Part shown: positions 51,201 to 54,200 of the stretch, one piece after another | How the letters are laid out: the number at the start of each line of letters is the position of its first letter | Position numbering within the stretch: position 1 is the first letter of the stretch | Assembly (NCBI RefSeq): GCF_055900595.2 | Contig: NZ_CM148325.1 | Strand: one strand, 5' to 3' | Length of the DNA: 64,000 nt | Program-made: the position numbers

Positions 51201-54200
51201 AAGACGCACCAACCGAAGTTTGGGGCACACATTTTACCGCGCGAATTGCGCCAGACGCGATCAACAAATGGTTAAGTGGATTTTTCTCCCGCGAAGTGCA
51301 ATTGCGCTGGGTGGGGCCACAAATGACCCGGCGCGTGAAACGCCACAACACTGTACCTCTGTCATTTGCTGATGGCTATCCTTACCTTCTTGCTAACGAA
51401 GCCTCGTTACGTGATCTCCAACAACGTTGTCCGGCCAGTGTAAAAATGGAGCAATTCCGCCCCAATCTGGTGGTTTCCGGCGCGTCAGCCTGGGAAGAAG
51501 ATAGCTGGAAAGTGATTCGTATTGGTGATGTGGTGTTTGATGTGGTTAAGCCTTGCAGCCGCTGTATTTTCACCACCGTCAGTCCGGAAAAAGGACAAAA
51601 GCATCCGGCAGGTGAACCATTAAAAACATTGCAATCTTTCCGAACAGCCCAGGATAACGGCGATGTCGATTTTGGTCAGAATTTAATTGCCCGTAATAGT
51701 GGCGTGATTCGCGTTGGCGACGAGGTGGAAATTCTTGCAACGGCTCCGGCGAAAGTTTACGGCGCAGCTGCCGTGGACGATACCGTCGACGCCGCGCAGC
51801 AACCGGACGCAAATGTAGATATTGACTGGCAAGGGCAGGCATTTCGTGGAAATAACCAACAGGTGCTGCTGGAGCAATTAGAAAATCAGGGAATTCGTAT
51901 CCCTTATTCTTGCCGCGCGGGCATTTGTGGAAGCTGCCGTGTTCAGCTTTTAGAAGGCGAAGTCACACCCCTCAAAAAATCAGCAATCAGCAATGATGGC
52001 ACCATTCTTTGCTGTAGTTGTGTGCCGAAGACTGCGCTTAAACTAGCGCGTTAAACTGCCTGTTCGAGGCTGAAACTGTCAACATTAACCTGCGGTTTCA
52101 GCCTGTCATTCATGATTTTGATGGCGTCCCCCAACTGCATCGCGCGACCCGCAATAACAACGCAGGGTTGTGCCAGCAGGCACAGTGCGGCATTTTCGCC
52201 AGATTCAACGACCAGCAAATTGACCTGCTCGTAAGTGTCGCTCAACCAAACGCAGGCCGCATCGCCCGGCATGGGCACCCACATTTCACCATGGGAAACA
52301 AAATGCCAGCTTTTCGGCATTTGTGGTTTGAGATAACGAATTGCTACCAGTGCATTGAGCACCAGTTCGGCTTTTTGTTCTTTGGATAAATTAAAATCGC
52401 GGCACTTTTCTTCAAACGAGAAATAGAGCGCGGCGTCGTCAACGCAAAAGCCTGCGGGAGAAAAGGCATCTGGAGTCAACATTTTGCGCGCAAAACGTGA
52501 GCGAAATAGCATACCATTGGCTAAATCGAGCATCATTCGATCGTGCTCTTCATCGTAATACCAACGCCAGTTATCGTCTGGTTTAATTCGCATTTGCCTC
52601 TCCCCTACCCTATAAAACCGCAGCAACACAATCCATTGTCGCTTCGCTTAATAACCTCAACAATAAAAGTACAAAATGTCTAAATAAGCAACAGCGATGA
52701 ATATAAAACAACCAGGGCTTAAAATAAAGCCCTGATTATCTTATAAAGAGAAATTCAAAGAAATAATTAGATATGGTTAACGATTTCTTTAATCAGCGGC
52801 GGTCCTTTAAAAATAAAACCAGAATAAATTTGCACCAGTGAGGCCCCCGCAGCAATCTTTTCACGCGCAGCAATAACCGAGTCAATGCCGCCAACACCGA
52901 TGATCGGTAAGCGACCGTTTAATTCCTGTGACAAGCGGCGAATAATTTCTGTGCTTTTTAACTGAAGCGGACGACCACTTAAGCCACCGGTTTGATCACA
53001 ATTTTTCATTCCCTGAACCAGAGAACGATCGAGCGTGGTATTGGTTGCAATAACGCCATCAATATTATGGCGAACTAAACTATCGGCAACCTGGATCAAT
53101 TCTTTTTCAGAAAGATCCGGCGCGATCTTCACTGCGATCGGCACATATTTATGGTGCATCGCTTGCAAATCATTTTGCTTATTTTTAATCGCGGTTAAGA
53201 GATCATCCAGCGCTTCGCCATATTGCAGTGTGCGTAGTCCTGGGGTATTCGGCGATGAAATATTGATGGCGATATATCCCGCATAAGCATAGATTTTTTC
53301 CATACAAATCAGATAGTCATCTTTACCCTGCTCCACCGGCGTATCTTTATTTTTGCCGATGTTAATACCCAGGACGCCATCATAATGGGCTTTTTTTACG
53401 TTCTCTACGAGGTTATCAACGCCAAGATTATTAAAGCCCATACGGTTGATCAAACCTTCGGCATCTACCAGACGAAAGAGACGCGGCTTGTCATTACCTG
53501 GCTGTGGACGTGGCGTGACGGTACCGATCTCGATAGATCCAAACCCCATCGCGCCTAACGCGTCAATGCACTCCCCGTCTTTATCAAGACCGGCTGCCAG
53601 ACCAAGCGGATTTTTAAACGTCAGGCCCATGCAGTTAACAGGTTTCGCAGGCACTTTCTGCCGCACCAGTGCTTCAAACGGCGTTCCGGTAATGCGGCGT
53701 AATTGCTGAAAAGTAAACTCATGAGCGCGCTCTGGATCGAGCTGGAAAAGGGCTTTACGAACGAAGGGGTAGTACATGAACTCTCCTGGATTCCCGGTGT
53801 GCAAACCGGGGGCGTATTATGTGCGAGTTCGGACTAAAAGGGAATTGACCTGTGGCAAAAAATAGCAAACGTTTTCTTATTGCGCTTTTTTTATGCTTTT
53901 TTTGGCTTTTCTTCCTCAGATAAATCATTTCGACTCGCGGGCCACCTCTGTCAGACTGACCGAATTGTTATCAATGTTAACAAAACAAGAACAATTGGTT
54001 ATAAGGAGAGAGTATGCGTGTCATCACCCTGGCGGGTAGTCCTCGCTTTCCTTCTCGCTCCAGCTCCTTGCTGGAATATGCGCGGGAAAAACTGAATGGC
54101 CTGGATGTAGAGGTTTATCACTGGAATCTGCAAAACTTCGCCCCGGAAGATCTGCTCTATGCCCGTTTCGATAGTCCGGCGCTAAAAACCTTCACCGAAC

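What the first reader, a model, noticed from the sequence alone, without database searches (positions are those of the whole stretch)
53863..53878. Near-consensus PUR box shared by the compressed pyrD/ssuE control region
tagcaaacgttttctt matches the PurR operator consensus at 14 of 16 positions and lies about 90 bp upstream of pyrD, only about 135 bp from the ssuE start. With the fimbrial operon absent, purine-responsive and sulfate-starvation-responsive promoters are packed into 236 bp, raising the possibility of regulatory cross-talk.
Basis: partly seen in the sequence, partly recalled or inferred. Interest (0 to 1): 0.2.

Follow-up and report, generated by a model that had tools for sequence, protein, structure and literature searches.

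The report
Known PurR operator upstream of pyrD
The 16-base site is the natural counterpart of the long-known purine-repressor binding site in front of the E. coli pyrD gene; it is ordinary, and comparison with 80 related species indicates it serves pyrD, not the neighbouring sulfonate gene ssuE.

Summary
The sequence tagcaaacgttttctt is exactly at 53863-53878. It lies 85 nt from the pyrD ATG and 135 nt from the ssuE ATG, in a 236-bp gap. Read on the pyrD strand (AAGAAAACGTTTGCTA) it is the best PurR-matrix hit in the window. It is the positional orthologue of the K-12 pyrD operator CGGAAAACGTTTGCGT, which PurR binds in vivo (Cho et al. 2011). As a motif match alone it is not significant (about 0.6-1 expected per 64 kb). 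Position and conservation carry the case: 74 of 80 Enterobacterales species have a PUR box at this place, with 8 core positions invariant.

The "compressed" arrangement is ancestral, not a loss: 63 of 80 species have ssuE and pyrD back to back. K-12-type E. coli instead replaced 69 bp next to the box with about 7.1 kb carrying the elf fimbrial operon.

The box follows pyrD. Its spacing to pyrD keeps helical phase, and it survives where ssuE is gone. Three species with ssuE adjacent lack it. It lies about 119 bp or more upstream of the inferred ssuE start. Cross-talk with ssuE is therefore unsupported, though not experimentally excluded.

This allele scores 2.7-6 bits below K-12's but is under purifying selection. 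Already known; low interest.

The parts
53863..53878 (.). PUR box (PurR operator) of pyrD. Plus strand TAGCAAACGTTTTCTT; pyrD strand AAGAAAACGTTTGCTA. Centre is about -62 from the pyrD start sites.
   Evidence: 14.7 bits, top of window; symmetric score 15.1. Orthologous to the K-12 ChIP-chip site. Conserved in 74 of 80 species.
52767..53777 (-). pyrD coding sequence (quinone-dependent dihydroorotate dehydrogenase), the regulated gene
   Evidence: RefSeq annotation of the identical strain.
53816..53821 (-). pyrD -10 hexamer CATAAT; ATAAT is nearly invariant across species
   Evidence: The start-site rule is from review PMC6524683.
53778..53815 (-). pyrD initiation region and leader. It has a run of C (53812-53808), an inferred C start at 53809, an inferred G start at 53807, a hairpin at 53810-53793 and an SD AGGAG at 53787-53783. 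This is the CTP/GTP-sensitive start-site switch.
   Evidence: hairpin, -10.7 kcal/mol; almost invariant; mechanism from the literature. Start positions are inferred, not mapped here.
53837..53862 (-). Conserved promoter-upstream block: AGGTCAATTCCCTTT (53851-53837, covering the -35 region) and TTTTTTGCC (53862-53854, a T-run directly abutting the box)
   Evidence: A possible role as a -35 or UP-like element is inference.
53877..53945 (.). 69-bp ancestral spacer that K-12-type E. coli replaced with about 7.1 kb (elf promoter region plus elfADCG-ycbUVF). The junction touches the distal edge of the box.
53920..53930 (+). Conserved block ATAAATCATTT (near-palindrome TAAATnATTTA in most species), about -64 from the inferred ssuE start. 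Candidate LysR-type (Cbl/CysB) activator site of ssuE.
   Evidence: for conservation. The assignment to Cbl/CysB is inference.
53891..53896 (+). Conserved TTATGC block between the box and the ssuE activator block; role unknown
53946..54013 (+). ssuE core promoter and leader, shared with K-12. Holds CTGACC (53956-61), TGtTAACAA (53975-83) and the conserved GTTATAAGGAG (53998-54008, SD).
   Evidence: (68 bp homologous to K-12). The promoter hexamers and a start near 53989 are inferred.
54014..54589 (+). ssuE coding sequence (NADPH-dependent FMN reductase), the divergent neighbour

Best explanation
The 16-mer is the pyrD operator for the purine repressor PurR, a LacI-family dimer whose corepressor is hypoxanthine or guanine. 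It is centred about 62 bp upstream of the pyrD start sites, just upstream of a T-run and the -35 region. When purines are plentiful, PurR-corepressor binds here and modestly lowers pyrD transcription. The likely route is interference with upstream RNA polymerase contacts or DNA bending; that step is inferred. This control is layered on the separate CTP/GTP-sensitive start-site switch in the pyrD leader. The site is an allelic variant of the K-12 operator: the central 12 bp are identical and the two outer bases on each side differ. It acts on pyrD, not on ssuE. The back-to-back ssuE/pyrD layout is the ancestral enterobacterial arrangement.
For: Positional orthology with K-12 CGGAAAACGTTTGCGT. 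Cho et al. 2011 list that site as a PurR ChIP-chip region bound in the presence of adenine, and list pyrD among the genes affected by purR deletion. The primary reference, Wilson & Turnbough 1990, is cited there. The site is the top PurR-matrix score in the window, and its symmetric score exceeds 7 of 27 in-vivo-bound sites, including guaBA and carAB. 74 of 80 species carry a box at the same place, with positions 5, 6, 8, 9 and 11-14 invariant. Spacing to pyrD stays phased by one helical turn. The exact 16-mer is identical in C. amalonaticus and Intestinirhabdus alba, where pyrD third-codon positions are 62% and 56% identical and the distal flank is 19/40 and 12/40. The box persists when the neighbour is pepN or ycbF instead of ssuE. 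purR is present in 5424 of 5426 E. coli genomes.
Against: No binding or expression data exist for this allele. It scores 2.7 bits (symmetric model) to 6 bits (asymmetric model) below the K-12 allele. Position 16 = A is seen in none of the 27 training sites. Even the K-12 pyrD site gave one of the weakest ChIP signals (log2 1.01, only with adenine). As a motif match alone it is not statistically significant. The repression mechanism from about -62 is inferred, and the primary paper could not be read.
Confidence: 0.85

Rival explanations
1. The box is a genuinely shared element: PurR bound here also modulates the divergent ssuE promoter. This could work by bending DNA or by interfering with upstream CysB, Cbl or IHF contacts.
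For: The box lies only about 25 bp from a conserved TTATGC block and about 55 bp from the conserved ATAAATCATTT block on the ssuE side. The two genes have been neighbours in 63 of 80 species. In Y. pestis, PurR was reported by EMSA to bind the ssuE promoter region, and deleting purR lowered ssuD and ssuC, and ssuB marginally.
Against: The box centre is about 119 bp (or about 142 bp under the alternative promoter) upstream of the inferred ssuE start, beyond the likely activator site. Spacing to ssuE is not helically phased across species: 135-137, 141-143 and 148-149 nt. The box is retained where ssuE is gone (E. albertii, Salmonella arizonae, K-12 type) and is missing in three species with ssuE adjacent. 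In Y. pestis tauABC falls as well, which suggests an indirect sulfur-status effect, and there ssuE is not next to pyrD.
Confidence: 0.08
2. In this lineage the box is a decayed relic, too weak to be occupied by PurR in vivo, and pyrD is controlled only by the start-site switch.
For: It is among the lowest-scoring orthologous variants. Position 16 = A is unseen among in-vivo sites. The stronger K-12 allele is already weakly occupied.
Against: The identical 16-mer is kept across three genera while flanks and synonymous sites diverge. Its score lies within the range of sites bound in vivo. The distal half-site is identical to that of the purF operator.
Confidence: 0.05
3. The site is recognised by a different LacI-family repressor with a similar half-site (for example RbsR or Cra) rather than by PurR.
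For: LacI-family operators share a central CG and A/T-rich arms. This is general knowledge and was not tested here.
Against: The invariant columns G3, A5, A6, C8, G9, T11, T12, G13 and C14 match the PurR matrix specifically. The K-12 orthologue is a PurR ChIP target.
Confidence: 0.02

Closest known systems
E. coli K-12 pyrD PurR operator (CGGAAAACGTTTGCGT; Wilson & Turnbough 1990; Cho et al. 2011, PMC3159470)
   Same: Same locus and same position relative to the pyrD promoter (85 versus 86 nt from the ATG). The central 12 bp GAAAACGTTTGC are identical and the downstream promoter and leader are the same.
   Different: The outer bases differ (AA..TA versus CG..GT) and the T-run is one base shorter. 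The score is 2.7-6 bits lower. Upstream context is ssuE here and the ycbF stop codon, 8 nt away, in K-12.
purF operator (AAGAAAACGTTTGCGT), the classical high-affinity PUR box
   Same: 14 of 16 bases are identical, and the whole distal half-site AAGAAAAC is identical (table).
   Different: purF-type operators overlap the core promoter: Cho et al. report 44% of sites between -35 and -10. This one sits upstream at about -62 and differs at positions 15-16.
carAB P1 PurR site
   Same: Another pyrimidine-pathway promoter where PurR gives purine-specific repression in a multi-factor control region.
   Different: At carAB, PurR action requires PepA and involves IHF and RutR architecture. Nothing comparable is shown for pyrD.
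Reported PurR binding at the Yersinia pestis ssuE promoter (PMC10673613)
   Different: It is a different locus: Yersinia pyrD is next to pepN, not ssuE. The evidence is EMSA plus RNA-seq, tauABC changes too, and the effect is in the opposite direction to repression.

Membership tests
PurR operator (PUR box) | 16-bp imperfect dyad with a central CG and conserved G3, A5-A7, T10-T12 and C14 | tested here: met
   AAGAAAACGTTTGCTA has all core positions. It scores 14.7 bits on a matrix of 27 in-vivo sites, the top hit of the window, and 15.1 bits on the symmetric matrix.
PurR operator (PUR box) | Score within the range of sites occupied by PurR in vivo | tested here: met
   It is above 7 of 27 Cho et al. 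sites, including guaBA and carAB, but below the median of 17.9.
PurR operator (PUR box) | Lies in the control region of a PurR-regulon gene and is orthologous to an experimentally bound site | tested here: met
   It aligns base for base with the K-12 pyrD ChIP-chip site.
PurR operator (PUR box) | Conserved beyond neutral expectation in related genomes | tested here: met
   74 of 80 species carry a box, with 8 invariant columns. The 16-mer is identical where flanks and third-codon positions have diverged.
PurR operator (PUR box) | Statistically unexpected as a sequence match alone | tested here: not met
   15 of 100 shuffles gave at least one consensus match. 0.6-1.0 matrix hits are expected per 64 kb. 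This is not a defining property of the family, but it means the call rests on position and conservation.
PurR operator (PUR box) | Cognate repressor gene present in the organism | tested here: met
   purR is found in 5424 of 5426 complete E. coli genomes. It is not inside this window.
PurR operator (PUR box) | Corepressor-dependent PurR binding and purine-dependent repression for this allele | not testable with these tools
   Needs EMSA, footprinting, ChIP and reporter assays.
Shared operator of a divergent promoter pair (pyrD and ssuE) | Operator placed so that it can act on both promoters, by overlap or by conserved, phased spacing to both | tested here: not met
   It is phased to pyrD (84-86 or 94-97 nt) but not to ssuE (135-137, 141-143, 148-149 nt). 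It lies about 119 bp or more upstream of the inferred ssuE start.
Shared operator of a divergent promoter pair (pyrD and ssuE) | Operator co-retained with both genes in evolution | tested here: not met
   The box is kept with pepN or ycbF as neighbour. Three species with ssuE adjacent have no box.
Shared operator of a divergent promoter pair (pyrD and ssuE) | ssuE expression responds to purines or PurR through this site | not testable with these tools
   No data exist for a compact-arrangement strain. The K-12 data (Cho 2011) do not mention ssu, and K-12 has 7 kb between the two genes.

The most novel reading that the evidence does not exclude
Insertion of the elf fimbrial operon exactly at the distal edge of the operator, together with a linked change at its proximal edge, created two natural operator alleles in E. 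coli: AAGAAAACGTTTGCTA in about a quarter of genomes and CGGAAAACGTTTGCGT in the rest. If these differ measurably in PurR affinity, the strength of purine control over pyrimidine synthesis would differ between lineages. In compact-type strains PurR bound here might also slightly influence the adjacent ssuE upstream region.
Probability: 0.2. Interest if true: 0.25.

Novelty: already known. Interest (0 to 1): 0.1.

Why it matters
It matters little. The site is a textbook regulatory element in a variant form. The useful results are corrective. The ssuE/pyrD back-to-back layout is ancestral rather than a compression. The K-12 reference arrangement, including the ssuE upstream region used in Cbl studies, is the derived one. 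The PUR box tracks pyrD and not ssuE. If the two operator alleles differ in affinity, that would be a small, tidy example of a mobile-operon insertion re-tuning a neighbouring operator.

Tried and rejected
1. The strict palindromic consensus search with up to 3 mismatches found nothing, because the site has 4 mismatches to the perfect palindrome.

2. The sigma-70 consensus scan of 53700-54100 found no promoter, so both promoters had to be read from conservation and literature rules.

3. The primary papers could not be read: van der Ploeg 1999, Wilson & Turnbough 1990, Turnbough & Switzer 2008 and Sorensen 1993. The roughly two-fold size of repression and the mapped ssuE start therefore rest on my memory and are marked as such.

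4. Searches for an open description of the ssu promoter gave nothing usable.

5. A 66-bp megablast to count operator alleles recovered only the window's own lineage, 21 genomes, because of word-size limits. It says nothing about the 16-mer's overall frequency.

6. The search for PurR ChIP-exo data in other strains found nothing relevant.

7. The second-best matrix hit, at 1780, lies inside an ORF and was set aside as chance.

8. The idea that the compact layout arose by deletion of elf was rejected. The 69 bp missing from K-12 carries blocks conserved in distant genera.

Full report
**Observation.** The window is E. coli. It is 100% identical over 1.2 kb to strain Z0117EC0005 and about 96% identical to other strains with the same layout. 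The 16-mer tagcaaacgttttctt is at 53863-53878. pyrD runs 52767-53777 on the minus strand and ssuE runs 54014-54589 on the plus strand. The box is therefore 85 nt from the pyrD ATG and 135 nt from the ssuE ATG, in a 236-bp gap. It has 2 mismatches to ACGCAAACGTTTTCNT and 4 to the perfect palindrome (nothing was found within 3 mismatches). No elf/ycb fimbrial gene occurs anywhere in the window.

**Chance.** As a bare motif the match is unremarkable.
- 15 of 100 shuffles gave a match to the consensus.
- I built a matrix from the 27 non-pyrD sites in Table 1 of Cho et al. 2011 (PMC3159470). A score this high is expected 0.6-1.0 times per 64 kb, but only 0.002 times in a 236-bp gap.
- It is still the best hit in the window: 14.7 bits, read on the pyrD strand as AAGAAAACGTTTGCTA.
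- 452 kb of real flanking DNA from 80 species held only one hit of that strength, and that hit lies 302 nt upstream of Hafnia pyrD.

**Identity.** K-12 carries CGGAAAACGTTTGCGT at the aligned position.
- Cho et al. list exactly this sequence as a PurR ChIP-chip region bound in the presence of adenine. They also list pyrD among the genes affected by purR deletion.
- Their reference for direct repression is Wilson & Turnbough 1990, which I could not read.
- purR is present in 5424 of 5426 complete E. coli genomes.
- The finding is therefore the positional orthologue of a characterised operator.

**Anatomy on the pyrD side.** A review states that pyrC and pyrD start with CTP 6-7 nt after the Pribnow box, or with G two bases further on, and that the longer transcript forms a hairpin that hides the ribosome site (PMC6524683).
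- Here CATAAT is at 53821-53816, the C run is at 53812-53808 and the G is at 53807.
- The hairpin is at 53810-53793 (-10.7 kcal/mol) and the SD is at 53787-53783.
- This puts the box at about -54 to -69, centred near -62. These start positions are inferred, not mapped here.
- Between the box and the -10 lie a T-run and a 15-bp block, AGGTCAATTCCCTTT, which is almost invariant in 60 species.
- Repression from this upstream position is probably modest. It probably works through upstream polymerase contacts or DNA bending. That step is inference.

**Comparative test.** A scan of one genome per species returned 80 pyrD loci.

| Feature | Result |
|---|---|
| Species with a PUR box at the orthologous position | 74 of 80 |
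| Invariant box positions | 5, 6, 8, 9 and 11-14 |
| Species with ssuE as divergent neighbour (gap 227-259 bp in all but one; Serratia oryzae 534 bp) | 63 of 80 |
| Box to pyrD ATG | 84-86 nt (23 species) or 94-97 nt (36 species), one helical turn apart |
| Box to ssuE ATG | 135-137, 141-143 and 148-149 nt, about half a turn apart |
| Species with ssuE adjacent but no box | 3 |

The compact layout is therefore ancestral. The box is also kept where the neighbour is pepN (E. albertii, Salmonella arizonae, Intestinirhabdus, K. indica, Mangrovibacter) or ycbF (K-12, Escherichia sp. E1V33, Pseudocitrobacter). The box tracks pyrD, not ssuE.

**The elf junction.** About a quarter of complete E. coli genomes (1352 of 5426) have the compact layout.
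- K-12 shares window 53778-53876 on the pyrD side and 53946-54013 on the ssuE side.
- The 69 bp between them is replaced in K-12 by about 7.1 kb carrying the elf promoter region and elfADCG-ycbUVF.
- That 69 bp holds blocks conserved in distant genera: ATAAATCATTT at 53920-53930 and TTATGC at 53891-53896. The compact form therefore cannot be a simple deletion derivative.
- The junction touches box positions 1-2. Positions 15-16 and the length of the T-run also differ between the two forms.

**Strength of this allele.**
- The asymmetric matrix gives 14.7 bits for the window and 20.8 bits for K-12.
- A symmetric half-site matrix gives 15.1 and 17.9 bits.
- The window allele outscores 7 of 27 in-vivo sites, including guaBA and carAB, but is third-lowest of 37 distinct orthologous variants.
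- It is not a relic. The identical 16-mer occurs in E. albertii, E. whittamii, two further Escherichia lineages (loci L005 and L007), C. amalonaticus and Intestinirhabdus alba. In the last two, pyrD third-codon positions are only 62% and 56% identical and the distal flank is 19/40 and 12/40.

**Cross-talk with ssuE.** The ssuE promoter could not be taken from the literature.
- From the sequence, the better candidate is CTGACC-16-TGtTAACAA with a start near 53989.
- A second, near-consensus candidate, TTAACA-17-TATAAG, overlaps the SD and would give a leaderless mRNA.
- Under either candidate the box centre is about 119-142 bp upstream of the ssuE start, beyond the conserved ATAAATCATTT block at about -64. 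That is the usual position for a LysR-type activator site (inference).
- Cho et al. do not mention ssu, and K-12 has 7 kb between the two genes in any case.
- The only precedent is a Y. pestis study. There, EMSA showed PurR binding the ssuE promoter region, and deleting purR lowered ssuD and ssuC (ssuB marginally) and tauABC.
- The parallel tau change suggests an indirect sulfur-status effect, and Yersinia pyrD is not next to ssuE.
- Cross-talk is thus unsupported by the comparative evidence but not experimentally excluded.

**Verdict.** The site is the known pyrD PurR operator in a variant allele. The 'shared, compressed control region' reading is not supported. Novelty: already known. Interest: low.

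Noticed in passing
window 53877-53945; L001 about 2082-9168: The 69-bp ancestral spacer, which holds the conserved ATAAATCATTT and TTATGC blocks, is replaced in K-12 by about 7.1 kb. At the same offset from the ssuE -35 region K-12 has AATTTATATTT instead. So the K-12 ssuE upstream activating region used in Cbl/CysB studies is not the ancestral sequence.
   Followed up: partly
window 53837-53851: The 15-bp block AGGTCAATTCCCTTT, at about -28 to -42 of pyrD, is more strongly conserved across 60 species than the PUR box, yet it is a poor -35 match. The reason is unexplained; it could be a site for another factor or an unusual promoter architecture.
   Followed up: no
L004-L083, upstream of pyrD (position 2501): The box-to-pyrD spacing is bimodal: 84-86 nt in Escherichia, part of Citrobacter and Kluyvera, and 94-97 nt in Enterobacter, Klebsiella, Leclercia and others. 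This is a one-helical-turn indel immediately promoter-side of the box. In Escherichia, some Citrobacter species and Salmonella it also changed box positions 15-16 from GT to TA.
   Followed up: partly
L001 9156-9184; L004, L026, L027, L032: In K-12, Escherichia sp. E1V33 and Pseudocitrobacter the ycbF-like gene ends a few bases from the box (8 nt in K-12). The distance from the end of the ycbF match to the pyrD ATG is 113 bp in the three fetched genomes, and 110 bp from the annotated stop in K-12. The box ends in GCG(T/C) in all. The same junction in different genera suggests the fimbrial operon and the adjoining box moved, or were inherited, together.
   Followed up: no
L006, L014, L033, L060, L073-L075: The ssu operon is absent next to pyrD in E. 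albertii, Salmonella enterica subsp. arizonae, Intestinirhabdus alba, Klebsiella indica and Mangrovibacter. A PepN homologue is the nearest identified neighbour instead, and the PUR box is kept.
   Followed up: partly
window 53977-54005: A near-consensus sigma-70 pair, TTAACA-17-TATAAG, overlaps the ssuE Shine-Dalgarno sequence. If used, it would produce an almost leaderless ssuE mRNA. The invariant GTTATAAGGAG could therefore be a -10 element, an SD or both.
   Followed up: no
window 1780-1795 (minus strand): The second-best PurR-matrix hit, ACGTAATCGTCTGCGC (14.1 bits), lies inside a 230-aa ORF (1497-2189, plus strand). It is probably a chance match.
   Followed up: partly
window 53840-53905 and whole locus: The window belongs to a minority E. 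coli lineage. The exact 66-bp stretch around the box occurs in 21 of 5426 complete genomes. ssuE is only 94.1% identical to K-12, against 97.7% for pyrD.
   Followed up: partly
L005: This genome is deposited as E. coli strain SCPM-O-B-8794, but its pyrD is only 88% identical in nucleotides to the window (99% in protein). It probably represents a separate Escherichia lineage.
   Followed up: no
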